A stretch of DNA of 64,000 nt. It comes from a virus. Positions within the stretch are counted from its first letter, which is position 1, and every line of letters begins with the position of its first letter. Positions 693-61,360 of this stretch are shown piece by piece. The stretch lies in the IMG/VR virus record IMGVR_UViG_2785510761_000001. One strand, 5' to 3'. The notes beneath the pieces were generated by a model. It did not search any database. It was given only the letters and a program-made list of their open reading frames with translations, and was not told the DNA's origin. Made by a program: the position numbers and the translations under genes.

Positions 693-1061
693 GAATACTC
701 CTCCAGATTTGGCTTCTGAGAGTGAATGCGCAGTCCTTTCACGAGACCGGCAATACCAGGTTTGATGCTGTGCATATGCGCTCTGGCTTACGCGATACGC
801 GCCGGGGGAGTCCAGCGGCTTGTACTCGTCCGCCGGGTTCCAGCCCGAGAAATGGCGCAGAACATGCCCGCAGGGCGTGTGAATCGCCGACGCTTCCTGT
901 GTGCGCCTCGGGTCGGAAATCTGTACGCGGCGTGCAACTGGGGCCGTCCGCTGCGTGCCGGTTGGCAGGCTTGCTAGTCAGATTTCCAATGCGGGTGATG
1001 CGCCCCACGACGGGTTCTTTATGTCACGGGCTATTGTGTAGGGGCTCAGCGAGCGTGAGAG

Positions 1062-2030
1062 TTAGGAAGGCATGTTGAGCACATCGAGGCTGAGGAATTC
1101 GGTGAGCTCGTTGCCTTCGAGTTCATCTCTGTCCATCAGAAGCTCGGTGAGCTCGTCGATGAGGACCTCATGCTCTTTCACGACCGTGCGCGCTGCAGCG
1201 AGTGCTGCGTCGACGAGCTCAGCGAAGGAAACTGGCCCGGGCACCGCCGCGGGGTAGTCCCCTGAGGCAGCGATCTGGACGAGCTGGGCGAGGAACAAAG
1301 TGTCATCACTCTGCGCGCATCCGTTGTTGTATCCGGCAGGGGCCGCGCTCACCACGGCTTCGGCCCATCGCCATTCAGCTAACGGCATCTCCTCCCTCGG
1401 CTGCCACAACGTGCGCCCGCCCGATGCTCCCACCTGGCGGATCCCAACGTAAGTGACGGTGAAGCCAAGCGCAGCCGCGACCACTGCGTGCCTCGCCTCA
1501 TGCGCAGCACGCTCCCTCGGCACCGAGCCAAGGCGCGTCGGCGCCGCAAGAGTCGCGTCATAGGCAGCGCCAGCATTTCGCTCGATGCTGGCTGGGGGAA
1601 GACGCTCAAGACGCTCCAAGGCGGCCCGTGTTGAGGGGAACGTCACCAGAACGGCGATAGCACCTATCCCGTAAAGGACGGCCGTCTGAAGAACCTCAAC
1701 TTGGGCCGCGGTTGACCCGTCTGCATCGCGCCACGCGGAGATTAACTTCCACCCGGCAAAGCCCGCAATAAGGACTGTCGCGGCGACCTTAAAAAGCAGG
1801 TAGACCAGTTCGAGGGCTGCGAGCCCCACTATCCGCAAGACCGGGCGTACGGTTGCCCATCCGGCTCGAGCGCGGGTACTAAAGCTGTTCTGATTCTCCA
1901 TTAGAGGCTCCAATAGTTCTGGCAAGTAATCAGTCGAAGGCGGTGTCGCCAGATGACGGACTGTCATTGATCTCGATCTTCGTTGTGGGGAGGTTCCCTC
2001 GGCTGGTGCCGCTGGGCACAAAATGGTCAT
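1062..2030 (-). CDS. Membrane-anchored HExxH protein, peptidase M41/FtsH-protease-domain-like
   Basis: Two hydrophobic segments, then AAHEARHAVVA motif; ATGA overlap with the upstream gene. Confidence 0.55.
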   Translation of the reverse strand: MTILCPAAPAEGTSPQRRSRSMTVRHLATPPSTDYLPELLEPLMENQNSFSTRARAGWATVRPVLRIVGLAALELVYLLFKVAATVLIAGFAGWKLISAWRDADGSTAAQVEVLQTAVLYGIGAIAVLVTFPSTRAALERLERLPPASIERNAGAAYDATLAAPTRLGSVPRERAAHEARHAVVAAALGFTVTYVGIRQVGASGGRTLWQPREEMPLAEWRWAEAVVSAAPAGYNNGCAQSDDTLFLAQLVQIAASGDYPAAVPGPVSFAELVDAALAAARTVVKEHEVLIDELTELLMDRDELEGNELTEFLSLDVLNMPS

Positions 2031-2833
2031 GAGGCCTCCGGCGGGTTTGGGTGTTCAAAGTGAATGTGCAGCTCCTTCACGAGACGGGCGAGGCCAGGCT
2101 CGATGCTGCGAAGACGTGCCGCGGCCTGCGCGATCGGGTACTCCGAGGGCATGGGGCCTTCCTGAGCGTCGATGCGCTCCAACTCAGCAGCGAGCAGAAT
2201 GACGGCAGGCATGTACTTCGCCACCAGCTTCGCGACCATCTGATCGGGCACGTGCCCAAACTGGTGTTGCAGGCTGCCTGCGTTGTCTACAAGATCACTG
2301 GCTTTCACGAGCTTGGCTGTGTAACTCCCAGTCAAGATGATCTGTCTGATGTCATCGAGGTACGGCCCCAACGCGCGGGGCGCCCGGGTCACCGCCGCGA
2401 CAGCGAGCCCGACCGTACGCCCATAAGACTCGGAAATGAATTGCAGCGCGTGGTGCTGCAGCTGCTCTGGTGCGAGGTGACTCTGCGCCTCCTCGTTCAT
2501 CCCGCTCAGCTCCGCGAAACGCGAGGCGCAGTCTTCTGCGGTGTCGTGGAGCAGCGCGCTGGTCACGGTCTTTGGGCTGGGGTTTCCCCACCGCATGATA
2601 CGGATTGCCACGCGAAGGGGGTGCTCGATATACGGCACACGAGGCAGGTTTGAGCGCTGCCTGCGGGTCTGCCCACGATGCAGGTGGGTCGCCAGCTGGG
2701 CTGCGCTCGTCACCATCTCACGGCCGTCACGGTTGAAGCGCTGCACCTGTGACAGCAACTCGAAGCTGAGCTGGGCGCTGTCCATGTGCTTGAGCGGGAG
2801 AAGCGGAAAGTGGTTTCCGCTGTTCTTGTTCAT
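2027..2833 (-). CDS. HD-domain hydrolase, RelA/SpoT hydrolase (Mesh1/SAH)-like
   Basis: HRGQTRR..PYIEHPLRVA, ALLHDTAED, VKASDLVDN motifs; start moved to MNKNSG (ATGA overlap at 2830-2833). Confidence 0.75.
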   Translation of the reverse strand: MNKNSGNHFPLLPLKHMDSAQLSFELLSQVQRFNRDGREMVTSAAQLATHLHRGQTRRQRSNLPRVPYIEHPLRVAIRIMRWGNPSPKTVTSALLHDTAEDCASRFAELSGMNEEAQSHLAPEQLQHHALQFISESYGRTVGLAVAAVTRAPRALGPYLDDIRQIILTGSYTAKLVKASDLVDNAGSLQHQFGHVPDQMVAKLVAKYMPAVILLAAELERIDAQEGPMPSEYPIAQAAARLRSIEPGLARLVKELHIHFEHPNPPEAS

Positions 2834-3198
2834 GACCCGCTCCGCTCTGCTGCATCCTGATCTAGCACTGCGAGCACGACACTCACTCGCCGCATGATCC
2901 ACTCGCGCCCCTCCTGGTCGTACTCCTCGAACACAGGAGATGATGCGTCACTCGGCGCGAGCACCTGAAACAGATGCTCCGCGACGAGTGTTTGCCGCTG
3001 CTCGCTGCTGAGTGAAAGTGTTTGTGCTCGGAAGGCCTGGTCAACAATCTCCTCAACGTCCCCTTCAGCCTTGGCGCGCAGGTGCTCATCGAGGTCACCG
3101 GGAACGAGAGGGGCGAGGTGCGGGTGAAGCGCCTCGGCGTACGCGGAGAGCGCAAGCTCCCAGGATTCATCAGTGAATCTCCGTGCTGGTGATGACAT
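2830..3198 (-). CDS. Hypothetical protein
   Basis: 122-aa ORF, RBS AAGGA, CCGCGCATT motif at 3242-3250. Confidence 0.75.
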   Translation of the reverse strand: MSSPARRFTDESWELALSAYAEALHPHLAPLVPGDLDEHLRAKAEGDVEEIVDQAFRAQTLSLSSEQRQTLVAEHLFQVLAPSDASSPVFEEYDQEGREWIMRRVSVVLAVLDQDAAERSGS

Positions 3199-3292
3199 CG
3201 TGTTCAGTCCTTATGGGCCAGGGAGTGGGTGATGAATTCACAATGCGCGGTGCCGATGCAGGCTCTGATCACGCTGAGCGTATTCGTGCCAG

Positions 3293-3592
3293 TCAGAGCC
3301 ATCTGGACGGGATGAGTTCAGGGTCCGATGCCACCGAGACGAGCGTGGCCATCGACATTCGGTCGTCATGCTCAAGAGCTGGCGTTCCACGCTTAAGAGG
3401 TACTTTCAGCTGCAAGCCAAGTCCGACTACGAACTCTCGATTCGCCCCGCTTCGCGTCGTGAAAAGACCTCTGGCTTCGCTTGCTGCTTGCACGGTGATT
3501 ACTGTTCGCCACCAGGAGCGCTCTACTCCGGTTACGCGCAACGGTAGCCCTGTGCCCGTAGGCCGTGCCGGGCGGGTATTGAGTCTTGCCAT
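3293..3592 (-). CDS. Hypothetical protein (MARLNT...)
   Basis: TAATG overlap with the stop of the upstream methylase-like gene. Confidence 0.55.
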   Translation of the reverse strand: MARLNTRPARPTGTGLPLRVTGVERSWWRTVITVQAASEARGLFTTRSGANREFVVGLGLQLKVPLKRGTPALEHDDRMSMATLVSVASDPELIPSRWL

Positions 3593-4281
3593 TAGTCCGC
3601 GCCTTCCGTTCCATGCGTGAGAAGCTCGCTCCAGCGGCCGTTCACGTGCGCTGCTGTCAGCCACGGATCCCCGAACAGTTCGCCAGTCAGGGTGTCGGCG
3701 CGCTGTACGACGGCTGGTATGCCGAGAATGCTGAGCTGCACGTAAGTCATATGGACGGCGATTACGTCGATGTCGTGTGCGGTGACGTGCAGCTGCCGAG
3801 CAGTATCAAAACCCTGCTGGGCGAGGACGTTCGCGCCAGCGATGAGCAGTGCGCCGGCTCCGCATGCTGGGTCGAGCACCGTGATGAATGGCTGGCTGTC
3901 CAGCTTCTTCGTTGCATCGGACAAGGCGATGTTTGCGTTCAGCAGGCTGAGGTCGTATGGCGTGAACACTTGGCCGAGGTTCCCGTTTCCAGCGCCGAGA
4001 CTCATGTACAGGTCACCGAGTAGGTCTTGGTGCTGGTTGCCCTGGAAGCCCAAGGCGACTTCTCCGAGCGCTTCGGCGAACCGCGCCGCGCTTTCTGAGC
4101 CGTACCCGCTTATTACTTCGAGATACCGCTCCTCTCGCTCACCGATACGGCTCAGGTCTATCTGATTGCTCAGGGCGATAGCTGCCAGCTCAACAAAGTC
4201 GCGGAAGACATCGGATACGCGTTTCGCGCCGTTCTCAGTGTTCGCGAGCAGCAGCCTCTCAAGCGTGGTGTTCTTCTTCAC
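3592..4281 (-). CDS. Plasmid-type N-6 DNA methylase-like SAM-binding protein
   Basis: GQVFTP and DPACGAGALL SAM-binding motifs; no NPPY/DPPY seen; motif at 4305-4313. Confidence 0.75.
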   Translation of the reverse strand: MKKNTTLERLLLANTENGAKRVSDVFRDFVELAAIALSNQIDLSRIGEREERYLEVISGYGSESAARFAEALGEVALGFQGNQHQDLLGDLYMSLGAGNGNLGQVFTPYDLSLLNANIALSDATKKLDSQPFITVLDPACGAGALLIAGANVLAQQGFDTARQLHVTAHDIDVIAVHMTYVQLSILGIPAVVQRADTLTGELFGDPWLTAAHVNGRWSELLTHGTEGAD

Positions 4282-4316
4282 GGTTCCCTCCTCCTGAGGG
4301 ATCGAATGCGCGGGGG

Positions 4317-5698: not shown

Positions 5699-6472
5699 TC
5701 AGGCCGCCTTTCGGTACTGGCCTGTGGCGTAGTCGATCTCCCAGCCTTGGGCGGTATTCGACACAATGACACGCTCGTTGATCACTTGATCGCAGGACTG
5801 GATGTCCACGGTGACGGTGCGGGGGACGAGCTCTTCGCCGTCGTAGTTTGGTGTTGCTGCGTAGTACAGCGGGCAGCCGTTCGCCTGCTGGCTGCTCAGG
5901 TAGTCGCGCGCGATGACCTCAGTGTGTGCCATGCCGCCGGCGAACTCGCCGTGCAGTTGGGTTGAGCCGACGTTCTGGGTGCGGGTGCCGGTGACCAAGT
6001 TCTCCCGCGTCGCATCTCCGCCCAGGGAATCGGCGACCAGGTGGCTTCGGTTCCAGAACCAGCCCGAGTACGGCTTCGAGCCCTCGACAGTGGGGAGCGC
6101 ATCGATCTGCACTTCTGCATTGTCTCGCCAGCCGCTTGGGTCAACGGTGATTGACTGGCGACCAGCCTGCTGCGCTGACTGGCGGAGGTCGTACGTGAGT
6201 TCGCCGAATGCACACCCAGCGCGGCCGAGAGCGTCAAGCTCGCAGTAGTCCACCTGTCCGGCGACGGCTTCGTAGTCGCGCTGTGCCTCGCCGACGACTG
6301 TGAAGTAGTCGTCTGCCACGTCGATCGCGGGTGAAGGGGCAGTGATGCTCTCCGTTGCCGGAGTAGCGAATGCATCTTTCGCTGATGACATCCAGTCATC
6401 CGCGAAGTTCACGCCGACGATTGCGGCTGCCGCCAGGATAACGGCGATGACTGGAGTGCGCTTCTTGCTCAT
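5699..6472 (-). CDS. Secreted DNA/RNA non-specific endonuclease
   Basis: N-terminal hydrophobic signal, LDALGRAG, WNRSHLVADSLGG, NLVTGTRTQN, LYYAATPNY; leaderless after motif at 6481-6489. Confidence 0.85.
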   Translation of the reverse strand: MSKKRTPVIAVILAAAAIVGVNFADDWMSSAKDAFATPATESITAPSPAIDVADDYFTVVGEAQRDYEAVAGQVDYCELDALGRAGCAFGELTYDLRQSAQQAGRQSITVDPSGWRDNAEVQIDALPTVEGSKPYSGWFWNRSHLVADSLGGDATRENLVTGTRTQNVGSTQLHGEFAGGMAHTEVIARDYLSSQQANGCPLYYAATPNYDGEELVPRTVTVDIQSCDQVINERVIVSNTAQGWEIDYATGQYRKAA

Positions 6473-6506
6473 GACTGCCTAATGCGCGGTCGTTCGCCTC
6501 TCGTGA

Positions 6507-7703: not shown

Positions 7704-7743
7704 GCACTCATTACGAGCGGCCGAGCTCGGGGGTTACATGCGC

Positions 7744-8637: not shown

Positions 8638-9578
8638 GCTTTGATTATGGACGGCTGCAGAGCGACTGCATGCGCAAGCGCGATTCCGATGTGCTCGGCA
8701 AGCTTCGGGGGTACGGCGTTCCCCACCATCTGTTCGGCGTTCGTGCGACTACCGACAAACATGAACCCTGGTGGGAACGTCTGTATCGCGGCACGCTCTT
8801 TCAAGGTGAGTGCTCTGACTTCCGACGGGGCCGAGGCGTCGCCCGGATGCTGCTGGTAGGCCGGAGGCATCGGGCGGTTCACTCCACGGATAGTCGGACT
8901 CGGTTCGTCGATTGAGAAGATTGCACGTCGTGCGTACGAGCGTGGATGCCGGTAGTACGCCTCGACCCCCAGTGATTCTCCTAAGGCTTCCCGAACGGTC
9001 ATTGGGCGTGATGCAGCGCTGTCACGGATCAGCTGGAAGATCTGCTCAGTGAGAGAACGATCTTGGGTGCCGATGGTGACGAGGCGCTTCCGGGATTGAG
9101 GAGCGCCATACAGTGACGCATCGAGCACCGCCATCTGCACACGGTATCCGGCACCTTCCATGACGGACACGGCAGACTTGAACGCCGCAGCGTGCCGGGC
9201 TCGCGCCACATTCTCCATCACGAAAAGTGGTGGACGGAACCTACTGATGATCGCAGCGAACTTCTCAGTGAGGTCTGCGCGGGCTCCTTCGACCCGGTGC
9301 CCGGCGGATGAGAAGTCCTGGCATGGAGGCCCGCCGACGACGATGGGGAACTCACGTCCGCCGAGCTCATACTGCTCAAGTTCCAGGAAGGTAGCTTCAA
9401 GATCACCGAGGTCAAGAAGGTTCGCATCATGGCCCAAATTCTGCGTGTATGTATCAACCGCACAGGGCCAGGAATCGTAGCCGCGGAGCACTGTGAAACC
9501 CGCAGCTTGCAGGCCAAGACTCATCCCGCCGCATCCAGAAAACAGGTCAATAACGGGCGGCAGCGATTCTGTGTGCAT
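8634..9578 (-). CDS. dcm: DNA (cytosine-5)-methyltransferase, orphan
   Basis: DLFSGCGG, GGPPCQDFS, ENV, QSRKR, GNAVPP motifs; leaderless start MHTES 8 nt after motif at 9587-9595. Confidence 0.92.
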   Translation of the reverse strand: MHTESLPPVIDLFSGCGGMSLGLQAAGFTVLRGYDSWPCAVDTYTQNLGHDANLLDLGDLEATFLELEQYELGGREFPIVVGGPPCQDFSSAGHRVEGARADLTEKFAAIISRFRPPLFVMENVARARHAAAFKSAVSVMEGAGYRVQMAVLDASLYGAPQSRKRLVTIGTQDRSLTEQIFQLIRDSAASRPMTVREALGESLGVEAYYRHPRSYARRAIFSIDEPSPTIRGVNRPMPPAYQQHPGDASAPSEVRALTLKERAAIQTFPPGFMFVGSRTNAEQMVGNAVPPKLAEHIGIALAHAVALQPSIIKA

Positions 9579-9716
9579 CGCATCTGAATGCGCGGCGCCA
9601 CCCAAAATCAGCCCGTGTCAGATGCGGCGTAGCGGCAAAACCCCGTATGTGATCGGGGTGAGTCAACCTCCTCGGGGGTTCGCTCCCCAGGGCAGACACA
9701 TGAGAAGGGCCATCAG

Positions 9717-11176: not shown

Positions 11177-11650
11177 CTAGGGAATGCGCGGCTGGAGTGC
11201 GTCGGGGAGGTCGTTGAGCGTGGCCTTTGGCATCCGGCTGAACGCCTCTGGCCACTGCCATGCGAGCCGAACGATTGCCGGAAGCACCGGAACGTCGTAG
11301 TAACGTTCCCTCGGCTCTTCGCTTGAGTAGAGGAGGGTCGCAATCTCCTGAGGGTCATCGGTCAGGTGAAACCCGCGCACATAGCCATCCGGGGCCGATC
11401 TCCACTTGCTGAGGTTCGGGCGCCCTTCAACATCCAGCGGATACCCGGCGTGAGTTTCTACGAACACGTGATCCCAACACCACTCCTCAAGCACCAGGCC
11501 CGGTTCGTCCTCTGGCCAGTACGCCGCAAACACCATCCGGAAGCCGAACATCCGATGAAGTGCTAGCGCGAGCACCCAGCAGTCGCCGTACAGGAACGCC
11601 TGACGTTCAACTTCGATGTCGCTCTGGCGAGTGCTCACCGTCGACATCAT
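11177..11650 (-). CDS. Hypothetical protein (GDCWVLALALH ... H motif)
   Basis: ATGA overlap with the ligase gene; 157 aa. Confidence 0.7.
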   Translation of the reverse strand: MMSTVSTRQSDIEVERQAFLYGDCWVLALALHRMFGFRMVFAAYWPEDEPGLVLEEWCWDHVFVETHAGYPLDVEGRPNLSKWRSAPDGYVRGFHLTDDPQEIATLLYSSEEPRERYYDVPVLPAIVRLAWQWPEAFSRMPKATLNDLPDALQPRIP

Positions 11651-13953: not shown

Positions 13954-14008
13954 GGTGTGTCCTTTCAATGGCGCATCATGCGCCGACACACTGGCAATGC
14001 GCGGCCGT

Positions 14009-15464: not shown

Positions 15465-15539
15465 GATGCCCTCTCACTGACGGGAACCGCTCCCGCCATC
15501 TGATCAGGTAATGCGCGGGCAAAGTTCCCACACTCAAGC

Positions 15540-18981: not shown

Positions 18982-19046
18982 GGTGGCCTCTCCTGGCCTG
19001 CGATACTTTCGCGGCTCTGAACACCAATGCGCGGCGCTTTCGCGCC

Positions 19047-20047: not shown

Positions 20048-20377
20048 CTATGCGCGGTGCTCTCCGGTCTCTCGACCGTGCAGTGAGACATGCGCCTGCA
20101 GTTCTGCCCACGCACTCTGGATACGATGCTCCTGCCACTCCTCCCGCTCACTTGCATCGACAGCGCCTCTCCATTGAGTCAGCTTGGCCGCGCTTTGGGT
20201 CAGCAGGTCGAGCACCTCGGCTTCGCTGAGAGGTTCTTCGGCCACGCGGCAGATGTGGGTGGCCATCGCACGCGCGAGCATCCTCCAGCTGGGCGGATGC
20301 TCAGTCTGTGGCACAGAACACCACGCCAGCGTTGCAGCATACCTGTCGATCAGCAGCCACGATGTCGGGTTCATCAC
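20048..20377 (-). CDS. Hypothetical protein
   Basis: 109-aa ORF in the co-oriented array. Confidence 0.5.
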   Translation of the reverse strand: MMNPTSWLLIDRYAATLAWCSVPQTEHPPSWRMLARAMATHICRVAEEPLSEAEVLDLLTQSAAKLTQWRGAVDASEREEWQEHRIQSAWAELQAHVSLHGRETGEHRA

Positions 20378-21387: not shown

Positions 21388-21450
21388 GATGCCCTTTCGT
21401 TATTGCGACCCTCGCGACTTCTCAGTGGCAATGCGCGGTACGCTGAGCCC

Positions 21451-23930: not shown

Positions 23931-24148
23931 CGTGCCTCCAGGCTCTCTGTGGATAACGCTCGAATGCGCGGCACCCATGGGCCTCAACGGTCAGTGAACC
24001 GGCCCAGGTAGCGGGGAGATTGCTGTGAGTGCTTGCGCTGGCCTGAGCGGGTGAGGGGCGAGTGAGGTCGTTCGACAAGATGTGGACACGTGCCATACCG
24101 CTACAAGTCACGCCGCTATTTATCGTCGTTCGAGGGCAAGTTCCGGAG

Positions 24149-26550: not shown

Positions 26551-26594
26551 CGCGCCGCCTCCTCAGGTGTGTTGATGTGGAGGCAATGCGCGGC

Positions 26595-30426: not shown

Positions 30427-30479
30427 GAGCAGCCTTCCTGAGCCGGTGTCTCCGGGTTCCAGGGTGTAAATGCGCGGCA

Positions 30480-31223: not shown

Positions 31224-31245
31224 GCTCACTATTACGGGCGGCACA

Positions 31246-32426: not shown

Positions 32427-32456
32427 ACCGCGAATTACGTGCGGCGCGCGTTCACC

Positions 32457-33345: not shown

Positions 33346-33375
33346 GTCGCGGATTACTTGCGGCACTGGTTGCAT

Positions 33376-35195: not shown

Positions 35196-35414
35196 GTGTT
35201 CAGAATGCGCGGTGACGGCGTCTCGGGAGTCTCCGGTGCGAGCGTCGCGCAGAACTGGACGCTCGCGATACGTTCGGAGAACAGCGTGAGTGCCGGATCT
35301 TCCCGCCGAGAGAACTGCGACAGGCCAGCCCAGTTCTCGTCCAGGGCGAGGCTAAGGTATTCCGCCGCCGTCCCCTGGGCGGCAGGCCCAGACCGCAGCG
35401 CGAAAGGTTAAAGG

Positions 35415-37805: not shown

Positions 37806-37908
37806 TCTCTCCTCAGGGCTATGCGCCCCGACGGGGCTGCCCCTGTGAATGCGCGGCACCAAGGTGGAAGAGGTGTACGAGCGCTGTTGCGCGAGCTGCT
37901 GGTTGTGC

Positions 37909-38678: not shown

Positions 38679-38729
38679 GAAAACCTCCAAGGGTCAGGGG
38701 CAAGGCTCACCTGACCAATGCGCGGTCTT

Positions 38730-40627: not shown

Positions 40628-40828
40628 GAGGAACTCCAATCAGTTGGCCCCAAAGATGGGGTGCTGATGGAATGCGCGGTGTGATCAGACGTCATCAGGA
40701 CAGTGCGCCAGTGGGCAGAGACCCCAGAGCATGACTATGGCGGTGAACGCGGCAGCAATCGTTCCGACGTCAGGCATGATGTGCCGTACATTCTGGAGAT
40801 GATGAGGCAAAAATTGAAGGCCAGGGTG

Positions 40829-43910: not shown

Positions 43911-43965
43911 AATGCGCGGCACCCCATCGACGTAGTGCAGCTCTGATATCTCAGCCCCGCGCATT
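43911..43965. promoter_or_regulatory. Back-to-back divergent CCGCGCATT promoters at the strand switch
   Basis: Minus copy at 43911-43919, plus copy at 43957-43965 with ATG at 43975. Confidence 0.7.
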
Positions 43966-43974: not shown

Positions 43975-44670
43975 ATGACTCAGACCCACACCGTCCACCC
44001 CACCCAACTCATCGGCATCGGCGGCCGCAAGAGACACGGCAAAGATGCCTTCGCTTCCCTCATTGGTGAGCAGGATCCGGACGCTTGGATCGTCACCGGC
44101 ATGAGTGTCGCGCTATTCGAGGCAGCCCTCGTGTGCGACCCGCTGATCCCTCTTGCGCGGCCGCACCGTCGGCGCTGGCGAAGACGGCTGAGTGAAACTT
44201 CACCAGCCATTCTCTACCTTCGAGAGCGACTGAGGATCGAGCGGTTCAAGCATGTGCGGCTGTCACATTTGGTGATGGCGGTTGGTGAGACGGCAGCGAA
44301 AGAGGTTCCCGAAGTGCGGCAGTTCTTGCAGCGTCTGGGCACCGATGTTGGCCGGGACATGATCGACCAGGATGTCTGGGTGCGCGCCGCCGGCCGGAAG
44401 ATTGAGCAGCTCCGCGCGCAGGGGAAGAACGTCGTGATCACCGGCATCCGCTACCCGAACGAGCTGGCAATGGTGCAGAGGCTCGGCGGAACAACGTTCT
44501 GGGTAGAGCGCCCCGGCATGCCCGTAGATGCCAGCGACAGTCACGTGTCAGAACACGCACTGTCACTGCGGGACTTTGACCACGCCATCATGAACATTGG
44601 GACTCTCGACGACTTGCGTGAACAGGCGCTCAGCTGGGTGAAGATCCGCCCTCAGGAGACCGCGCATTAG
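43975..44670 (+). CDS. Deoxynucleoside monophosphate kinase (phage-type)
   Basis: IGIGGRKRHGKD, EVRQFLQRLGTDVGR, IRYPNE, HVSE. Confidence 0.85.
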   Translation: MTQTHTVHPTQLIGIGGRKRHGKDAFASLIGEQDPDAWIVTGMSVALFEAALVCDPLIPLARPHRRRWRRRLSETSPAILYLRERLRIERFKHVRLSHLVMAVGETAAKEVPEVRQFLQRLGTDVGRDMIDQDVWVRAAGRKIEQLRAQGKNVVITGIRYPNELAMVQRLGGTTFWVERPGMPVDASDSHVSEHALSLRDFDHAIMNIGTLDDLREQALSWVKIRPQETAH

Positions 44671-44698
44671 ATACTCACACCAACGATAGGAGCACATC

Positions 44699-45112: not shown

Positions 45113-45174
45113 ACGAACACCCCATGCGAAGCGGTGTGCCCTCAAAATAGGCTGCCGCCGCGCATTCTCATGGC

Positions 45175-45480
45175 ATGACCCACCCGGAGCCGTCGCCCGT
45201 CAACTATTGCCCGGTGCACGGCGACCTACTCGTGCAGGACCGGTTCGGGCGTAACACTCGAAGCGACCGCTGCGCCGACGCGCACTCGATCGCGCAAATC
45301 AACGCGCTCGTAGCCGGGCCGAACGAGATCGCCGACGCGATCGAGAAGCTCGCGGAGAGCCATCAAGCTTCCGTGTTCGGGAGCGCAGTGCATCTGGCTG
45401 CGAAGCTTGGAGCGCCGCTGATGATCAGCGCCCCGCAGTGGCTGCGAGACGTCGCGGCGCAGCTGCGTGCCCGCGCGTAA
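45175..45480 (+). CDS. Hypothetical protein
   Basis: Leaderless after motif at 45158-45166. Confidence 0.65.
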   Translation: MTHPEPSPVNYCPVHGDLLVQDRFGRNTRSDRCADAHSIAQINALVAGPNEIADAIEKLAESHQASVFGSAVHLAAKLGAPLMISAPQWLRDVAAQLRARA

Positions 45481-45487
45481 TCAGGGC

Positions 45488-46225: not shown

Positions 46226-46317
46226 CTGAGCGTCAGCGCAGACTTCACGGGTGCTGCGCGCCGAAACTCGTGCGCCCGCGCATTCTCAGGGAAACCGATT
46301 GAGGAGACAGGCGTGCG

Positions 46318-46881: not shown

Positions 46882-47315
46882 CACAGGTACACGCGTGGGG
46901 CTGGGCTGCGCGGCGAGCGCGCGGCATGCTGGTGGTCGCCGCGGAGCCGGGGGAGCGCCTGCAGCAAGTTTGGGCTCGCGCGAACCGTCCGCTGTACGCT
47001 GTCCGCGCGACAGCCCTCGCGGCATTGCTCACTGCCATCGTCTGCTTCGCAGCAAGTATCCCCGCCCCGCCCGCGTTCTGGGTGATCGCCACTGTCGCTG
47101 CGCTCACCTGGACCGTTGCTCTGCTGCGCACCGGCGCGCTAAAAGGCTACGACCCCGACCATTGGGCGTGGGTGCAAGCGACAGACATCTGCGCCACTTC
47201 GAGGGAGCTTCGACAGGTTGTCATTGCGCTTGAGTCTGATCCGGACTCCGCAGAACTCCGCGAGCAGTTGTACGACCTGATCACCGCGCATACAGAGCGC
47301 AACCACGAACACTAG
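46878..47315 (+). CDS. Two-TM membrane protein
   Basis: ATGA-coupled, hydrophobic hairpin. Confidence 0.65.
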   Translation: MTQVHAWGWAARRARGMLVVAAEPGERLQQVWARANRPLYAVRATALAALLTAIVCFAASIPAPPAFWVIATVAALTWTVALLRTGALKGYDPDHWAWVQATDICATSRELRQVVIALESDPDSAELREQLYDLITAHTERNHEH

Positions 47316-47331
47316 GCAAGGAGTTCAAGCC

Positions 47332-47505
47332 GTGCAGAAGGAACCCACCCTCGACTGCCAAGCGTGCGGAGCCACCCTGAAAGCTCTCACCCCCGCGCAG
47401 ACGCAGGCGGTCGCCGAGAACCCATACAACTTTGTCGCGTACTGCCACCGGAAAGCCTGCACGGAACAGGCAGAAGCTGAAGCACGGGCGGAGGGCCTGC
47501 TATGA
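47332..47505 (+). CDS. 57-aa CxxC/CxxxxC peptide not in the ORF track
   Basis: GTG start after AAGGAG; CCGCGCATA at 47284-47292; stop overlaps the next ATG (ATGA). Confidence 0.65.
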   Translation: MQKEPTLDCQACGATLKALTPAQTQAVAENPYNFVAYCHRKACTEQAEAEARAEGLL

Positions 47506-47987: not shown

Positions 47988-48017
47988 CGACTGACACGTG
48001 CCGCGCATTCAGCTGGC

Positions 48018-54007: not shown

Positions 54008-54065
54008 CTGCGCATTCAACGCTTGAAGCTCGCGACAACCATGACGGAAAGATGAGAAAAGACCT

Positions 54066-54877: not shown

Positions 54878-54929
54878 CCGCGCATTGCTTGGACAGGTGC
54901 CACCCCGGGCGCCGGGAACAGGAGCCAAC

Positions 54930-55355
54930 ATGTCCGAGCAGATCCACGGCCTGCGCATCAGCCCGCGCGGCATCACGAACATCAACATCGACCGCGAGCA
55001 CTCAGTGCGGCGTATCCAGGAAGTCGTTGGCTGCCGCATGTTCACGGTGGTCAGCCTGAGCCAGGACATCGACCTGTTCGTGGATGATGAGGCGCTGCTT
55101 GTCGCGGAGCCGGAGCTCAACCTACCACTCACCGTCATTGCACACGCGCTCGGCAGCCCGCAGGTGCTGTTCGGCAATGGGTTCGCTGCCGGGGCCGATG
55201 ACGAGACCGGCGAAACGGTGGGGCTTACGCCCGCCCAGAAGTACGCCGTGAACACCGCCGCCAACGGCAAGCTCGAACCGGAAGTCCTTGAGCTGCTGTG
55301 CGAGAACCTGAGCCCGTGGCCTGCTGTTGTGAGCCTGGTGCTCGCGAAGCACTAA
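54930..55355 (+). CDS. DUF3846-like protein
   Basis: IQEVVG..LFVDDEALL..LN..LFG; RBS AGGAG; motif at 54878-54886. Confidence 0.6.
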   Translation: MSEQIHGLRISPRGITNINIDREHSVRRIQEVVGCRMFTVVSLSQDIDLFVDDEALLVAEPELNLPLTVIAHALGSPQVLFGNGFAAGADDETGETVGLTPAQKYAVNTAANGKLEPEVLELLCENLSPWPAVVSLVLAKH

Positions 55356-55366
55356 GGGGTCACGGG

Positions 55367-56041
55367 ATGTTCAAGTTCTATGGAGCTAAGCATCGGCTCG
55401 CAGCGCTGTACCCCGTCCCGACCCGCTCGGTGATCATCGAACCGTTCGCGGGCGCGGCGGGGTATGCCGTGCACTGGCGCAACGCGGCCGACCGGGTGAT
55501 CCTCGTTGAGAAAGATGAACGGGTCGTTGAGCTCTGGCAGCGTCTTCTGGCGATGCCGGTGGACGAGCTGCTCGAACTCCCAACCCCGGAAGCGGGGGAG
55601 CGAAGCTCAGACCTGTTGGTGGCGTTCGCAGCCGGTCGCACCACCCGCGATACCCCGAAGACGTTCACCGTCACTAGTCGCATGGCGGAGCGGTTCAACC
55701 CGATGCGCAGACGTATCGCAGAGTCCCTTGATGAATGCCGGCACTTCGAACTTGTGCATGGCGACTACCGCGACGCGCCGAACATTGAGGCCACCTGGTT
55801 CATCGACCCGCCGTACCAACCAACAGGCGTTGGCAGGCCCGACCGCACCCGCGGCGGACGCTACACCCATTCGAACGCAAATATCGACTACGACGAGCTG
55901 AACGGCTGGACTCAGAGCAGGCGCGGGCAGGTCATCGCCTGCGACCAGGAGGGAGCTGACTGGCTGCAATGGAACGGAGCTATCGCCGCTCAGGACACAT
56001 CTAGTCGCGGCTACAGGGAAGTGTTCTGGGAACGCTGTTGA
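55367..56041 (+). CDS. DNA adenine methyltransferase (Dam/D12-like), orphan
   Basis: FYGAKHRL, IEPFAGAAG, FIDPPY. Confidence 0.85.
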   Translation: MFKFYGAKHRLAALYPVPTRSVIIEPFAGAAGYAVHWRNAADRVILVEKDERVVELWQRLLAMPVDELLELPTPEAGERSSDLLVAFAAGRTTRDTPKTFTVTSRMAERFNPMRRRIAESLDECRHFELVHGDYRDAPNIEATWFIDPPYQPTGVGRPDRTRGGRYTHSNANIDYDELNGWTQSRRGQVIACDQEGADWLQWNGAIAAQDTSSRGYREVFWERC

Positions 56042-56109
56042 GCATCACGGCCACTCGGCCCGCGCATTCTCGTTCCAGCCGGACACACCGGCAAGAAAGG
56101 AATGGAACC

Positions 56110-57045
56110 ATGACGCTGCTTGCAGTGCCCAGCCCGCCCCGCGCGAAGCTCGTGCCGGCCCATCTCGCCCATGACGTTGGAAGACAAACCGACGTGCTCG
56201 TGTGGACGAAACGCACGTTCCCCGGGATGCTGTGGAGCGTAGCCGTAGACGAGCCCGGAGCTGGGCTGCGTCTACTGGGGGCCGGACAGGAGCGCGGCCA
56301 CAAGCCCGCCCTCGAGCAGGTGAACCGAGTACTTCGCGGAATCCAGGTGAAGGATGCGGTCCTGCACATGCAGGGCGCAGGCTTGTCGCCTTCGATAAGC
56401 AACGCGAACCGACTGTCATACTCCTCACTGCACTTGCCTCACGGTGCACGCGCAAGAGACCCCTACGAAGCTGGTGACTACCGGCCGGAGCTGCTGGAGT
56501 TCGCAGAGAAGTCCTGCCCCGGCATGATCACCGGCTCCAACATTCGCATCGCCACAGACGGGAGTGTCTCACACTTCAGCGGCCATGCCGGGTTCGGGTG
56601 GATTTCAAGTCAAGGCCAATTCGGAGTCGGGGTTCTCGGCGTGAACCACGACATCGTGAACGCTGAGCTCGCAGCGATCGACAACGCCATGTCACGCGTG
56701 CGTGGCGCCTCCGGAGTGGTGCAGGTCGATTCAGCGAGCGCCATCTCCATGATCGAGCAGCGCCTCCACATGGACCGCAGGCCCGCGTTCACGAAGTCCC
56801 AGTCGGCACGACTCAACAGTTTGGATCGGTCGCCGATACGCGGCATGCGGATCGAAAAGGTGAAGGCCCACAGCGGACACATCCTGAACGAGGGTGCTGA
56901 CCGCATCTCCCGCCTGGCTCGCCGATCCAGTGAAGACGGAATCGACACGCGAACGATGTGGGAGATCGCCGCGGGTGTGAGAGACGACATCATGGATCAG
57001 CTTGCGCAGCAGCGGGGCGGGGTCACCGCGCATTCGTCGAATTGA
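56110..57045 (+). CDS. Ribonuclease HI-like protein with N-terminal extension
   Basis: IATDGS, NAELAAI, VDSASAI, VKAHSGHILNEGADR; motif at 56060-56068. Confidence 0.82.
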   Translation: MTLLAVPSPPRAKLVPAHLAHDVGRQTDVLVWTKRTFPGMLWSVAVDEPGAGLRLLGAGQERGHKPALEQVNRVLRGIQVKDAVLHMQGAGLSPSISNANRLSYSSLHLPHGARARDPYEAGDYRPELLEFAEKSCPGMITGSNIRIATDGSVSHFSGHAGFGWISSQGQFGVGVLGVNHDIVNAELAAIDNAMSRVRGASGVVQVDSASAISMIEQRLHMDRRPAFTKSQSARLNSLDRSPIRGMRIEKVKAHSGHILNEGADRISRLARRSSEDGIDTRTMWEIAAGVRDDIMDQLAQQRGGVTAHSSN

Positions 57046-58074: not shown

Positions 58075-58164
58075 CAGGGTGCCAAAATTCAGGCATACTG
58101 CGCATTCATACGGGTGAGCGTCAACAAATAGTGGTGACGCACAACTGAGAGGGTGCTGCAGAGC

Positions 58165-59983: not shown

Positions 59984-60399
59984 TCAGTTACCCCTGCCCG
60001 CAAGCTGGGCGCGGCGCTGATCAAGTTCAGCTTGCTCGCGGTCCAGTTGCGCAAGCTCCTCCGCCGCGGTGCGCTCCTGGGCAGCCCTCGCAATCTGATC
60101 TACCAGGCCTGTTAGCTGGCTGGCGGCGCCGCAGTTCGGCACGCGGACCGAGACCTGGATCACAACGTCGTCTGCATCGCTGCCATATGCGGTGTTTCGT
60201 TTGCCGCCCAAGGGATCATAGGTCGTGTACCCCTTTCGGTCGTACACAAAGGCGGCAGCCCATTCAGCGTCATCTGAGCTTGACCCGGTGATCGCCTGGG
60301 TGAGAGCGAGTGCAGCTGCATCTCGCAGAGACTGTTCGTGGTCCGAGGTCGCACCTTGAACGTGAAGTGCTGGTACTTCTTGGGGAGCGTGTTGCGCAT
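59984..60399 (-). pseudogene. Hypothetical protein with an apparent 1-nt frameshift near 60351
   Basis: ATG after CCGCGCATA (60441-60449) gives MRNTLPKKYQHFTFKV; adding one base joins it to SDHEQSLRDAAALAL... Confidence 0.4.
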
Positions 60400-60455
60400 G
60401 GGACTCACTTTCTGCCGGCTTATCCGGCCGCTGCAATTTCTATGCGCGGCATTCG

Positions 60456-60914
60456 CTATCCCTCGATCTGCAACAGTGGCGGCTCTCCGCTATCGATGGA
60501 CAGCATCACCTGATCGCCGACCTGCTCGAACACGGTTCGCCCGCCGGGGAGCACCAGATATGGAAAGAACTCCTGCTCAAGCGTCGCGATTTGCGATTCG
60601 ACCGCTTCAAGCTTGGCTTTGATCACCAAACCGAGAGCACGCCATCTTTGGCGCACAGCTTTCTCGTGTTCGGTGGCTTGGGTTGATACGGATCGCCGCT
60701 GCCCGGTCAGAGTATGAGTGAAGTCGCGGTCGTCTGGGTTGGGGAGCGTGATTGCGAAGCGAACATGCCGGTTGCTGGTCACGAATGAGATAGCAGCCAG
60801 GGTGTCGCGCTCTAGGTATGCGAAGTCCTTCGCACCGTACCGCTTGACGATGTTGCGGATCTCGGTCAGGCTCCGGTCGGCGGAGACTGTCGTCTGTTTG
60901 GCGTAGGTTGCCAT
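60456..60914 (-). CDS. Phage-type hypothetical protein
   Basis: TTVSADRS..EI..YGA; RQRWRAL.LVIKAKLEAVES..EQEF; RBS GAAGGG. Confidence 0.75.
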   Translation of the reverse strand: MATYAKQTTVSADRSLTEIRNIVKRYGAKDFAYLERDTLAAISFVTSNRHVRFAITLPNPDDRDFTHTLTGQRRSVSTQATEHEKAVRQRWRALGLVIKAKLEAVESQIATLEQEFFPYLVLPGGRTVFEQVGDQVMLSIDSGEPPLLQIEG

Positions 60915-60957
60915 CGTTGTCCCTTCAATCTGCATTCATGGTGCGCGGTGCAATTGC

Positions 60958-61254
60958 TCAGCGCTTCTTCTGTGACACTTGAAACATGTGGATCGCCGTC
61001 AGCACATCTCTCCACCCGACGCATTCCGCTCGATAGGCGTGCACGATGGCGCGGAGCGTCAGTGCGTTTTCGGACCAGTCCTCTGGGTCGAGCATGGCCA
61101 CCGCGCGTGGGGAGGGGTGCTTTGGCAGAAACAGCGACCTGAGCTTCGTCTGCGTGTTCAGCTCGACCCAGATCTTACCTCGGTCGCTGTACACGATTAC
61201 TCGGTCGAAAGACTCGAGGTTGAGCTCGGGAATCCCGGCCTGGTTGAGGCTCAT
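60958..61254 (-). CDS. Hypothetical protein
   Basis: 98-aa ORF; CCGCT-CATATT variant at 61281-61291. Confidence 0.55.
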   Translation of the reverse strand: MSLNQAGIPELNLESFDRVIVYSDRGKIWVELNTQTKLRSLFLPKHPSPRAVAMLDPEDWSENALTLRAIVHAYRAECVGWRDVLTAIHMFQVSQKKR

Positions 61255-61337
61255 GATTCAACCGTAAAGTCAGCGGCTGCAATATGAGCGGCACATTCAG
61301 TCGGCCGCGTGCCGCTGGGTCCTGTTGAGGGTTTCAT
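61251..61337 (-). CDS. Possible 28-aa leaderless peptide
   Basis: ATG 8 nt after CCGCGCATT (61346-61354); TGA overlaps the next ATG. Confidence 0.35.
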   Translation of the reverse strand: MKPSTGPSGTRPTECAAHIAAADFTVES

Positions 61338-61360
61338 CACCACTGAATGCGCGGGAACAA

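What the first reader, a model, noticed from the sequence alone, without database searches (positions are those of the whole stretch)
725..61354. Element-wide regulon: CCGCGCATT upstream of most transcription units
By manual reading there are 26 perfect copies plus at least 6 one-mismatch copies. A rough expectation for this 9-mer over both strands at ~64% GC is about 1. Every copy I found points in the direction of the next gene and lies in an intergenic gap or at the 3' end of the previous gene. In seven cases (6481, 9587, 35204, 43957, 45158, 48001, 61346) ATG follows after 8-9 nt with no RBS. That places CATTNN as a -10-like box in front of leaderless mRNAs. In the others an RBS lies 25-60 nt downstream. 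This resembles conserved-upstream-repeat control of establishment genes (CUP elements of IncN plasmids, EGeRS of Bacillus pLS20-family plasmids), but the motif is not one I recognise. No sigma factor is visible in the window, so the activator is either outside it or host-encoded.
Basis: partly seen in the sequence, partly recalled or inferred. Interest (0 to 1): 0.8.

Follow-up and report, generated by a model that had tools for sequence, protein, structure and literature searches.

The report
Element-wide promoter motif with leaderless genes
A 9-base word, CCGCGCATT, sits in front of about half the genes of a giant mobile element in an actinobacterium and is almost certainly that element's own promoter signal, probably read by a previously unannotated sigma-like protein encoded 2 kb outside the window.

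Summary
There are 26 perfect CCGCGCATT copies against about 1 expected. All are co-oriented with the next gene, and all are intergenic or at the 3' end of the previous gene. In six cases the motif plus 8-9 nt lands on the ATG of a real gene; the seventh case starts only a 28-codon ORF. Leadered copies show a pyrimidine-purine step at the same position, so a transcription start 9-10 nt after CAT is inferred.

The motif survives in a 77%-identity relative while its flanks diverge. More distant relatives keep the architecture with variant words: CCGCGCATCACT, CCGCGCATGTG, CCGTGCATGTG, CCGCACAT and CCGCCCACT.

In three searchable relative genomes the word is concentrated in one 170-260 kb integrated island, for example 51 of 54 copies in Microbacterium gorillae.

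There is no -35 box and no T at -7, so this is not a housekeeping promoter.

A divergent sigma-like gene family, annotated only as hypothetical, occurs in these islands. This element's copy lies 2.0-3.1 kb beyond the window end and is itself leaderless behind a variant motif. That this protein reads the motif is inference, at about 0.5. Two smaller motif-bearing islands lack the gene. No RNA data exist.

The parts
3242..3250 (-). class I motif CCGCGCATT, 43 nt before ATG 3198 (gene 2830-3198)
4305..4313 (-). class I motif, 23 nt before GTG 4281 (N6 methylase 3592-4281), SD GGAGGAGGG between
6481..6489 (-). class I motif, 8 nt before ATG 6472 (non-specific nuclease 5699-6472): leaderless
9587..9595 (-). 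class I motif, 8 nt before ATG 9578 (C5 cytosine methylase 8634-9578): leaderless
11183..11191 (-). class I motif in the 3' end of gene 11177-11650, 41 nt before ATG 11141
13996..14004 (-). class I motif, 42 nt before ATG 13953 (kinase-phosphatase-RNA ligase, Pnkp-like, 11647-13953)
15510..15518 (-). class I motif, 45 nt before ATG 15464
19026..19034 (-). class I motif, 44 nt before ATG 18981
21430..21438 (-). class I motif, 42 nt before ATG 21387
23963..23971 (-). class I motif, 32 nt before ATG 23930
26585..26593 (-). class I motif, 34 nt before ATG 26550 (gene 25729-26550, then dCMP deaminase)
30469..30477 (-). class I motif, 42 nt before ATG 30426
35204..35212 (-). class I motif, 8 nt before ATG 35195 (metallophosphoesterase 34413-35195): leaderless
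37848..37856 (-). class I motif, 42 nt before ATG 37805
38717..38725 (-). class I motif, 26-38 nt before the start of gene 38367-38690
40671..40679 (-). class I motif, 43 nt before ATG 40627
43911..43919 (-). class I motif, left arm of a back-to-back divergent pair; 306 nt of non-coding sequence before the 901-aa gene (start 43604)
43957..43965 (+). class I motif, right arm of the divergent pair, 9 nt before ATG 43975 (dNMP kinase): leaderless
44660..44668 (+). class I motif in the last codons of the dNMP kinase gene, 30 nt before ATG 44699
45158..45166 (+). class I motif, 8 nt before ATG 45175: leaderless
46276..46284 (+). class I motif, 33 nt before ATG 46318
48001..48009 (+). class I motif, 8 nt before ATG 48018: leaderless (ortholog in L003 is also leaderless)
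54878..54886 (+). class I motif, 43 nt before ATG 54930 (DUF3846)
56060..56068 (+). class I motif, 41 nt before ATG 56110 (RNase H domain protein)
57026..57034 (+). class I motif in the 3' end of the RNase H gene, 48 nt before ATG 57083
61346..61354 (-). class I motif, 8 nt before ATG 61337 (28-codon ORF only) and 91 nt before ATG 61254
725..733 (-). variant CTGCGCATT, 32 nt before ATG 692 (DUF3039)
20049..20057 (-). variant CCGCGCATA, 45 nt before ATG 20003
47284..47292 (+). variant CCGCGCATA, 39 nt before GTG 47332
54008..54016 (+). variant CTGCGCATT, 49 nt before ATG 54066
58098..58106 (+). variant CTGCGCATT, about 46 nt before the 589-aa gene
60441..60449 (-). variant CCGCGCATA upstream of ORF 59984-60436
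63968..63976 (-). variant CGGCGCATT, 63 nt before ATG 63904 (NAMPT-family gene)
7710..7720 (-). class II variant CCGCTCGTAAT, 6 nt before ATG 7703 (N-tagged protein): leaderless
8644..8654 (-). class II variant CCGTCCATAAT, 6 nt before ATG 8637 (N-tagged protein): leaderless
31231..31241 (-). class II variant CCGCCCGTAAT, 7 nt before ATG 31223 (N-tagged SprT-like): leaderless
32434..32444 (-). class II variant CCGCACGTAAT, 7 nt before ATG 32426 (N-tagged protein): leaderless
33353..33363 (-). class II variant CCGCAAGTAAT, 7 nt before ATG 33345 (N-tagged SprT-like): leaderless
45471..45481 (+). class II variant CCGCGCGTAAT, 6 nt before ATG 45488 (Hjc-like nuclease, untagged): leaderless

Best explanation
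CCGCGCATT is the promoter of a private transcription system belonging to a giant integrated mobile element of Microbacteriaceae.

Geometry. The invariant block CCGCGCAT occupies about -17 to -10, covering the extended -10 and upstream -10 region. There is no -35 element. Transcription is inferred to start 9-10 nt after the T of CAT. In about a quarter of the units here the start falls on the A of the ATG, giving leaderless mRNAs. In M. gorillae this is the case for about 60% of units. The other units have 15-40 nt leaders with their own Shine-Dalgarno sequence.

Reader. The most likely reader is host RNA polymerase core carrying an element-encoded, highly divergent sigma-like protein (family A3). 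This element's copy is 365 aa and lies 2.0-3.1 kb to the right of the window, at window-equivalent 66014-67111 on the plus strand. The protein has a sigma2 domain and a sigma3-like domain, which would fit a -35-independent, extended -10-type promoter. Its own gene is leaderless behind a variant motif (CCGCTCGTAAT + 7 nt + ATG), which suggests autoregulation.

Shown by computation: the enrichment, orientation and position of the motif; the fixed spacing to start codons; conservation against diverged flanks; confinement of the variant words to the islands in relatives; and the sigma-like sequence and fold signals.

Inferred: the start site itself, that the A3 protein binds RNA polymerase, and that it reads this motif.
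For: Promoter (about 0.9):
- There are 26 copies against 1.08 expected.
- All 26 are gene-oriented and non-coding or at a gene's 3' end.
- Back-to-back divergent pairs sit at strand switches, at 43911/43957 here and likewise in L003, L004, L006, G001, G096 and G510. This excludes an RNA-processing site.
- The spacing to annotated ATG starts is 8-9 nt in the window, L003 and L009.
- In M. gorillae, 27 ATG and 4 GTG lie exactly 9 nt after CCGCGCAT among 51 sites.
- At the same position in leadered sites, a purine occurs in 20 of 27 (window set) and 14 of 15 (M. gorillae), preceded by a pyrimidine.
- Orthologous intergenic regions of the window and L003 are about 50-60% identical, yet the 9-mer is intact.

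Element-specific:
- 51 of 54 genome copies of CCGCGCATGTG lie in one ~190 kb island of M. gorillae.
- About 64 of 85 copies of TGCCGCACAT lie in ~257 kb of G510, with 19 control matches genome-wide.
- 38 of 61 copies of CCCGCCCACT lie in ~170 kb of G501.
- Host background hits are coding sequence (PurE) or palindromes.

Sigma-like reader (about 0.5):
- The A3 family is found in only 2 of 151 family genomes and 8 of 401 order genomes, and in the relatives examined it lies inside such islands.
- Pfam Sigma70_r2 hits 10 of 63 members, Sigma70_r3 hits 3 and the mycobacteriophage Gp53 family hits 7.
- In a profile search of PDB sequences, 21 of 23 hits are sigma factors, the best being SigE at E = 0.002.
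- The AlphaFold2 model has mean pLDDT 84.
- Nearly all of the Foldseek top 50 are sigma factors.
- VIA-align gives Z 6-7.3 to sigma2 domains at rmsd 2.3-3 A, and also to sigma2+3.
- All eight A3 genes examined are leaderless behind a CCGC.C..A..-type variant motif.
- The motif word changes as the sigma-like protein diverges.
Against: - No transcript data exist: no public RNA run holds the region. The start site is therefore inferred.
- The sigma assignment rests on sub-threshold sequence hits and middling Z scores for a helical fold. No region 4 was recognised.
- The complex-prediction test was not available.
- Two smaller motif-bearing regions carry CCGCGCATG + 8 nt + ATG clusters but have no A3 gene and no Sigma70_r2 match in the region. 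These are G096 C12 at about 289-329 kb and the 149-kb contig G090 C2. Neither genome has an A3 gene anywhere.
- The 8-mer core is invariant across elements whose A3 proteins are only 25-35% identical. That would be easier to explain with a conserved host factor.
- One A3-bearing genome (G427) gave no recognisable motif.
- The window's own genome is not held. The chromosome-versus-element contrast was therefore tested only in relatives.
Confidence: 0.5

Rival explanations
1. The motif is a promoter, but it is read by a host-encoded factor, for example an alternative sigma conserved in Microbacteriaceae. The elements exploit this factor, and the A3 protein does something else.
For: - The core CCGCGCAT is identical in elements of Leucobacter and several Microbacterium species whose proteins are 25-50% identical.
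- The islands in G096 and G090 have the motif but no A3 gene or other sigma.
Against: - Almost no copies lie outside the islands in the three genomes tested, so the host regulon would be essentially empty.
- Background chromosomal hits are coding sequence or palindromes.
- The 3' extension differs between elements within one genus: T versus CACT in Leucobacter, and GTG versus AGG versus G in Microbacterium.
- The motif lacks a -35 box and T-7, so it fits no host sigma class I know of.
Confidence: 0.2
2. The motif is a promoter read by a different element-encoded factor. This could be an unrecognised RNA polymerase or a non-sigma RNAP-binding specificity protein, either outside the regions I could see or too divergent to detect.
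For: - Only about 84 kb of a 451-kb contig could be read.
- Most element proteins have no family match.
- The M. gorillae island also encodes two ECF-type sigmas.
Against: - No DxDxD-type polymerase motif occurs in any window protein longer than 250 aa, nor in the conserved ~1000-aa neighbour.
- There is no T7-type RNAP in M. gorillae, although that search's own control rang in none of 14 known genomes, so it is not informative.
- No homologs of the M. gorillae ECF sigmas were found in the sequenced stretches of the other elements.
- The only protein family shared by all motif-bearing elements, including G096, is the 467-aa protein next to the ATPase. It has no DNA-binding signature.
Confidence: 0.15
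3. The motif is primarily an operator for an element repressor. It would be an asymmetric, transcription-oriented silencing site like the stoperators of Cluster A mycobacteriophages, overlapping promoters only incidentally.
For: The sites are asymmetric, short, numerous, intergenic and always co-oriented with transcription, as described for L5 stoperators (from established knowledge; orientation data).
Against: - The fixed 8-10 nt spacing to leaderless start codons in six or more elements is a promoter property, not a stoperator property.
- So is the pyrimidine-purine step at the same position in leadered sites.
- No other promoter-like element accompanies the sites.
Confidence: 0.07
4. The motif acts at the RNA level, either as a processing site that releases leaderless mRNAs from long transcripts or as a translation signal, like the start-associated sequences of Cluster K mycobacteriophages.
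For: Many copies lie between co-directional genes, where processing would be possible.
Against: - Back-to-back divergent pairs have no upstream transcript to process.
- The motif has no complementarity to the anti-Shine-Dalgarno sequence.
- In leadered units a separate SD lies 20-40 nt further on.
Confidence: 0.03

Closest known systems
Phage T4 late promoters (TATAAATA at -10) read by the divergent sigma gp55
   Same: Both use a single conserved 8-9 bp block in the -10 region with no -35 element. Both recur in front of many units of a mobile genome.
   Different: The word is GC-rich and unrelated in sequence. The block extends upstream to -17, as in an extended -10. Many transcripts are leaderless. 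The host is an actinobacterium, and the carrier is an integrated 170-260 kb island rather than a lytic phage. The gp33 and sliding-clamp co-activation of T4 has no counterpart identified here. The T4 facts are from established knowledge and were not tested here.
Mycobacteriophage D29 gp53-gp52 module (Pfam PF25684), reported to bind mycobacterial RNA polymerase and displace SigA (bioRxiv 10.64898/2026.10.05.756390)
   Same: It is an actinobacterial mobile-element protein with sigma-like engagement of host RNAP. Seven of 63 A3 family members hit PF25684 weakly, with a best E-value of 5e-7.
   Different: The A3 proteins are about 340-370 aa with sigma2 plus sigma3-like domains. The hits cover only the first ~66 profile positions and are mostly below threshold. 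No gp52 partner was identified. No cognate promoter motif is described for gp53 in the part I read.
AcaCD and SetCD master-activator regulons of IncC plasmids and SXT ICEs
   Same: One element-encoded factor switches on many operons across the element through a repeated upstream site. Unrelated mobilisable islands carry the same sites and are activated in trans. This is a possible parallel for the G096 and G090 islands that have the motif but no A3 gene.
   Different: AcaCD and SetCD are FlhDC-type activators that bind upstream of sigma-70 promoters. Here the repeated site is the -10 region itself, and the proposed factor is a sigma. The comparison is from established knowledge and was not tested here.
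Stoperators of Cluster A mycobacteriophages (L5 gp71 repressor sites)
   Same: Both are short asymmetric sites, number in the dozens per genome, lie in intergenic spaces and are always oriented with transcription.
   Different: Stoperators have no fixed distance to start codons and act by blocking elongation. The sites here have promoter geometry.
CUP repeats of IncN plasmids
   Same: Both are repeated promoter-bearing sequences in front of accessory or establishment-type genes.
   Different: As I recall them, CUPs are long repeated segments. Here only 9 bp are conserved and the flanks are unrelated.

Membership tests
Housekeeping (group 1 sigma, actinobacterial SigA) promoter | -10 hexamer TANNNT with A at -11 and T at -7 | tested here: not met
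   If +1 is the A of ATG, then A is at -11 and T at -10. Position -12 is C. Position -7 is unconserved in the window and is C or G in relatives.
Housekeeping or ECF sigma promoter | A conserved -35 element (TTGACA-like, or the AAC motif of ECF promoters) 16-18 bp upstream | tested here: not met
   No column upstream of the motif is conserved in 38 aligned sites. The same holds for the 51 M. gorillae sites, apart from the base immediately 5' of the motif, which is G in 45 of 51.
-35-independent, single-block promoters read by an element-encoded sigma (T4 late type) | One conserved block in the -10 region, no -35, repeated before many units of the element | tested here: met
-35-independent, single-block promoters read by an element-encoded sigma (T4 late type) | The element encodes the cognate sigma, which binds host core polymerase | tested here: inconclusive
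   A sigma-like gene is present beside the window and in the related islands.
Sigma-70 protein family (for the A3 protein) | Region 2 (core binding and -10 recognition) recognisable by profile and by fold | tested here: inconclusive
   Pfam Sigma70_r2 hits 10 of 63 members, but all below the gathering score. The PDB profile search returns sigma factors for 21 of 23 hits, with a best E-value of 0.002. Fold Z is 6-7.3 over 70-77 residues at 2.3-3 A.
Sigma-70 protein family (for the A3 protein) | Region 4 helix-turn-helix | tested here: not met
   No Sigma70_r4 hit occurs in any of the 63 members. The C-terminal helical domain (residues 228-358) is unassigned.
Cluster A phage stoperators | Asymmetric site, one orientation relative to transcription, intergenic | tested here: met
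Cluster A phage stoperators | Bound by the phage repressor; position independent of start sites | tested here: not met
   Repressor binding could not be tested. Position, however, is tightly tied to start codons, at 8-10 nt.
IncN CUP-type conserved upstream repeats | A repeated segment much longer than the core promoter | tested here: not met
   The flanks of the 26 copies and of orthologous copies are unrelated.
Cluster K start-associated sequences | The motif contains the ribosome-binding site and lies 3-8 bp before the start codon | tested here: not met
   The motif has no SD-like sequence. In leadered units the SD is separate and lies 20-40 nt downstream.
Integrative conjugative element (for the carrier) | Integrase at a boundary plus a conjugation ATPase set | tested here: inconclusive
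   The M. gorillae island has a tyrosine integrase at its right end. It also has an AAA_10 (VirB4-like) ATPase, an FtsK-like 1394-aa ATPase, a polytopic ~1000-aa membrane protein and WXG100-type proteins. No relaxase was recognised. No phage structural genes were recognised either.

The most novel reading that the evidence does not exclude
These 170-260 kb islands of Actinomycetota carry an orthogonal transcription system: a new, unannotated sigma family with about 150 clusters at 50% identity, plus a -35-less, mostly leaderless promoter code (CCGC.CA. + 9 nt + ATG).

The sigma may itself be a delivered protein. Its N-terminus bears the same ~30-aa tag (RR..GLGKTA.GG..GSFA.H.R...PP) as five other proteins in the window and as the C-terminus of HipA. 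The tagged genes, including the sigma gene, share the class II promoter variant.

If the tag is a translocation signal, the sigma would enter a new host cell together with the DNA and switch on the class I regulon before any element gene has been transcribed. That regulon includes methylases, nucleases, RNA repair, NAD salvage and nucleotide metabolism. Smaller islands that have the motif but no sigma (G096, G090) would then be satellites that wait for a helper.
Probability: 0.15. Interest if true: 0.9.

Novelty: new variant of a known kind. Interest (0 to 1): 0.7.

Why it matters
If confirmed, this would be a compact, host-independent promoter code for a family of very large integrated elements in Microbacteriaceae and related Actinomycetota.

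- It would be an easy computational marker for finding and delimiting these islands. In M. gorillae the word alone outlines a ~190 kb island.
- It would be a new example of mobile-element takeover of RNA polymerase in a phylum where such mechanisms are only now being described.
- It would be a natural system with a high share of leaderless mRNAs from one defined promoter type, useful for studying leaderless initiation.
- The sigma-like family is annotated only as 'hypothetical protein'. Assigning it a function would annotate about 150 protein clusters.
- A short orthogonal promoter plus its factor could also serve as an expression tool for high-GC Gram-positive bacteria.

Tried and rejected
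- Whole-genome contrast in the window's own strain: no genome is held and the record is not searchable. I used relatives instead.
- Near-identical DNA in the phage and plasmid collections: none.
- The 951-aa ATPase in viral contigs and in phage records: none.
- The 944-aa core protein: only distant hypothetical proteins in 130-310 kb phages and no PDB relative.
- RNA evidence: both searches returned no RNA holder. Reads from a polyA RNA run under the same species label did not map. Runs guessed to be RNA are probably DNA contigs.
- Element-encoded RNA polymerase: no catalytic DxDxD-type motif in large proteins. The T7-type RNAP family search was uninformative, because its control rang nowhere.
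- ECF sigmas of the M. gorillae island as the common reader: rejected, because they have no homologs in the other elements.
- Host regulon: the conserved chromosomal 'hit' CCGCGCATCTGCCCGGCATG is the GAAHLPGM-coding part of PurE. Many other hits are CATCCG...CGGATG palindromes.
- Literature: the 9-mer occurs only in unrelated contexts. I found no description of these islands or of their promoter.
- G427: the over-represented word GAGGCATCC is unoriented and looks like coding sequence, so no promoter word was identified there.
- One HipA look-up failed because of a start-codon mismatch.

Full report
**1. The observation**

CCGCGCATT occurs 26 times in the 64-kb window. Dinucleotide-preserving shuffles give a mean of 1.08 and never more than 3. 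The window is 61-62% G+C.

A codon-usage gene model gives about 79 genes and 87% coding sequence. It agrees with independent gene calls for the parts where these exist.

All 26 copies point the same way as the next gene:
- minus strand from 3242 to 43911;
- plus strand from 43957 to 57026;
- minus strand again at 61346.

All 26 lie in intergenic gaps or in the last codons of the preceding gene.

- Six of these ATGs (6472, 9578, 35195, 43975, 45175, 48018) are the starts of long ORFs.
- The seventh (61337) opens only a 28-codon ORF, and the next real gene starts 91 nt downstream.
- The remaining copies lie 23-49 nt before a start codon, with a Shine-Dalgarno sequence in between. The one exception is 43911, which is followed by 306 nt of non-coding sequence.

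One correction is needed. One-mismatch copies as a class are not enriched: 22 are observed against about 25 expected. Only seven qualify by position and orientation. They use recurrent substitutions: CTGCGCATT three times, CCGCGCATA three times and CGGCGCATT once.

**2. Where the window comes from**

The window is bases 16577-80576 of a 450,962-bp contig of assembly GCA_004362775.1. No whole genome is held for it.

Flanking loci show that the motif continues to the left of the window. Three more copies lie there, one of them leaderless, in front of genes including a DNA ligase gene; thymidylate synthase and NrdI genes lie in the same stretch. The motif is absent from the 10 kb to the right.

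The genes behind the motif include:
- DNA methylases;
- a GmrSD-type nuclease and a non-specific nuclease;
- a kinase-phosphatase-RNA ligase;
- dNMP kinase and dCMP deaminase;
- an Hjc-like resolvase;
- RNase H;
- phosphoesterases;
- a NAMPT-family enzyme.

No near-identical DNA exists in the phage or plasmid collections.

**3. Evidence that the motif is a promoter**

(a) Divergent pairs. Back-to-back pairs sit at strand-switch points, at 43911 minus and 43957 plus here. The same arrangement occurs in five relatives. No upstream transcript could be processed there.

(b) Independent gene calls in a relative. Locus L003 is 77% identical in the 951-aa ATPase. Five independently called genes there start exactly 8-9 nt after the motif or its CTGCGCATT variant.

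(c) Conservation against diverged flanks. Orthologous intergenic regions of the window and L003 align at only about 50-60% identity, yet the 9-mer is intact.

(d) No conserved flanks. Across 38 aligned sites nothing outside the 9-mer is conserved, so there is no -35 box. However, the 9th base after the motif is A or G in 29 of 38 sites. Among the leadered sites alone it is a purine in 20 of 27, preceded by a pyrimidine in 19 of 27. This is the same position as the A of the leaderless ATGs.

Together these points place an inferred transcription start 9-10 nt after the T of CAT. Under that reading, CCGCGCAT occupies -17 to -10, with A at -11. Positions -9 to -7 are not conserved, so this is not a TANNNT housekeeping promoter.

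**4. Relatives keep the architecture and vary the word**

| Relative | Motif word |
|---|---|
| Leucobacter sp. cx-169 (two loci about 170 kb apart on one 218-kb contig) | CCGCGCATCACT(G) |
| Microbacterium gorillae | CCGCGCATGTG |
| Microbacterium oral taxon 186 | CCGTGCATGTG |
| G107 | CCGCGCATAG |
| G528 | CCGCGCATAT |
| G510 | (G)TGCCGCACAT |
| G501 | CCCCGCCCACT |

In each case many copies are followed by ATG or GTG after 8-10 nt. In M. gorillae, 27 of 51 sites have ATG and 4 have GTG exactly 9 nt after CCGCGCAT.

**5.

- In the complete M. gorillae chromosome, 51 of the 54 copies of the 11-mer lie between 2.452 and 2.637 Mb. That region has lower G+C than its surroundings and a tyrosine integrase at one end.
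- In G510, about 64 of 85 copies of the 10-mer lie within about 257 kb. The reversed-pattern control gives 19 genome-wide.
- In G501, 38 of 61 copies lie within about 170 kb.
- In 151 genomes of the family, CCGYGCAT-N9-ATG typically occurs 0-4 times. The background hits I inspected are PurE coding sequence or palindromes.

The word is therefore specific to the islands, not to the host.

**6. Who reads the motif**

The window contains no sigma factor. Fifty proteins were scanned, and the A3 profile was searched against all six frames.

The M. gorillae island gave three Sigma70_r2 signals. Two are ECF-type sigmas without homologs in the other elements. The third, a 335-aa protein, has homologs in Leucobacter cx-169 and immediately to the right of the window. 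That copy is at L010 6794-7891, minus strand in the locus. This corresponds to 2.0-3.1 kb beyond the window end, on the plus strand.

An exhaustive search found 149 clusters of this family, which I call A3. All members I looked up are named 'hypothetical protein'.

Evidence that A3 derives from the sigma family:
- Sigma70_r2 hits 10 of 63 members, Sigma70_r3 hits 3 and the mycobacteriophage Gp53 family hits 7.
- A profile search of PDB sequences returns sigma factors for 21 of 23 hits.
- A confident model (mean pLDDT 84) retrieves almost only sigma factors with Foldseek.
- VIA-align gives Z 6-7.3 to sigma2 domains, and also to sigma2+3.

All of these signals are individually weak, and no region 4 was recognised.

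A recent preprint reports that D29 gp53 binds mycobacterial RNA polymerase and displaces SigA. That gives a precedent in the same phylum.

Links between A3 and the motif:
- The family is rare: 2 of 151 genomes in the family sample and 8 of 401 in the order sample. In the relatives examined it lies inside motif-bearing islands.
- The motif word changes as the A3 protein diverges.
- Every A3 gene I examined (eight) is itself leaderless behind a variant word. For this element that word is CCGCTCGTAAT + 7 nt + ATG.
- A sigma2 plus sigma3-like architecture would fit a promoter made only of an extended -10 region.

**7.

- A 40-kb island in G096 carries clusters of CCGCGCATG + 8 nt + ATG. It has an integrase and a homolog of the window's 467-aa protein. 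A 149-kb contig in G090 carries similar clusters. Neither has an A3 gene or a Sigma70_r2 match in the region, and neither genome has an A3 gene anywhere.
- The identical core across elements with very different A3 sequences would also fit a conserved host factor.
- One A3-bearing genome (G427) gave no clear word.

**8. A second promoter class and the tag**

I confirmed it: six window sites of the form CCGC/T-N-C/A-N-TAAT, each 6-7 nt before an ATG, and all leaderless.
- Five of the six drive the proteins that share an N-terminal tag.
- The A3 gene beside the window uses the same class.
- Its product carries the same tag, RRGSKGLGKTANGGNDGSFASHERE..SP.

This is the basis of the novel reading: the sigma-like protein may be delivered as a protein. 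I have no evidence about what the tag does.

**9. The carrier**

Relatives are integrated islands of 170-260 kb. They encode:
- a tyrosine integrase;
- a VirB4-like AAA_10 ATPase;
- an FtsK-like 1394-aa ATPase;
- a polytopic ~1000-aa membrane protein encoded just after the A3 gene;
- WXG100-type proteins;
- ParA.

No phage structural genes and no relaxase were recognised. The phrase 'giant integrative, probably conjugative element' is the best description I can give, with moderate confidence.

**10. Verdict**

The finding is real and the promoter interpretation is well supported by computation. The system works like the -35-independent promoters that phage-encoded sigmas read, T4 late transcription being the closest model. 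However, the word, the leaderless output, the host phylum and the carrier are all different, and the proposed sigma family is unannotated. I found no description of it in the literature I could search. I rate it a new variant of a known kind, with interest 0.7.

Noticed in passing
window 24212-24802, and L010 8289-8879 (about 65026-65616 in window-equivalent coordinates): A 591-bp segment is present twice at 97.8% identity and in inverted orientation, about 40 kb apart. The second copy lies in the 1.3-kb gap upstream of the sigma-like gene. An AT-rich tract also precedes the sigma-like gene in the metagenomic relative L025.
   Followed up: partly
L010 6794-7891 minus (2.0-3.1 kb right of the window); window 6507-7703, 7744-8637, 30480-31223, 31284-32426, 32569-33345, and 26595-26700: The sigma-like protein starts with the same ~30-aa tag (RR..GLGKTA.GG..GSFA.H.R...PP) as the five N-tagged window proteins and as the C-terminus of HipA. 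Relatives carry weaker versions of the tag. In G090, the A3 profile picked up other proteins through this tag alone.
   Followed up: partly
G096 C12 about 289-329 kb (L032-L035) and G090 C2 (L026-L031): These smaller regions carry CCGCGCATG + 8 nt + ATG clusters and divergent pairs but have no sigma-like gene. The G096 island has an integrase and two copies of the 467-aa core protein. They could be satellites of the large islands.
   Followed up: partly
window 43000-49000: This 6-kb stretch is held at 94-100% of sampled words by 19 public runs from 10 studies. The runs carry several different (coded) organism labels. One label also has many polyA and single-cell RNA-seq runs. The bacterium or its element is therefore widespread, or it is a recurrent contaminant.
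   Followed up: no
window 61337-61251 minus: A 28-codon ORF starts exactly at the leaderless position after the 61346 motif. It ends just before the 98-aa gene. It could be a leader peptide or a chance ATG.
   Followed up: no
window 43605-43910: The 43911 promoter is followed by 306 nt without a credible ORF before the 901-aa surface-protein gene. This could be a long 5' UTR or a small RNA.
   Followed up: no
L019 5692-9045 (M. gorillae island): An SNF2-family helicase gene is interrupted by an intein with a LAGLIDADG homing-endonuclease domain.
   Followed up: no
L023 10001-11413 (Leucobacter sp. cx-169): A second sigma-like paralog lies about 160 kb from the first on the same 218-kb contig. 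It is followed directly by an Lsr2-family (nucleoid-associated, AT-binding) gene. The 77% relative has two tagged sigma-like genes in tandem (L024 175-2282).
   Followed up: no
window 49752-52607 and 52604-54007: The 951-aa protein has Walker A (GSGKT, residue 392) and Walker B (DE, residue 677) motifs about 285 residues apart, a spacing that I recall is more typical of coupling-protein or VirB4-type ATPases than of terminases. The 467-aa protein after it is the only family shared by every motif-bearing element examined. Neither has a Pfam match.
   Followed up: partly
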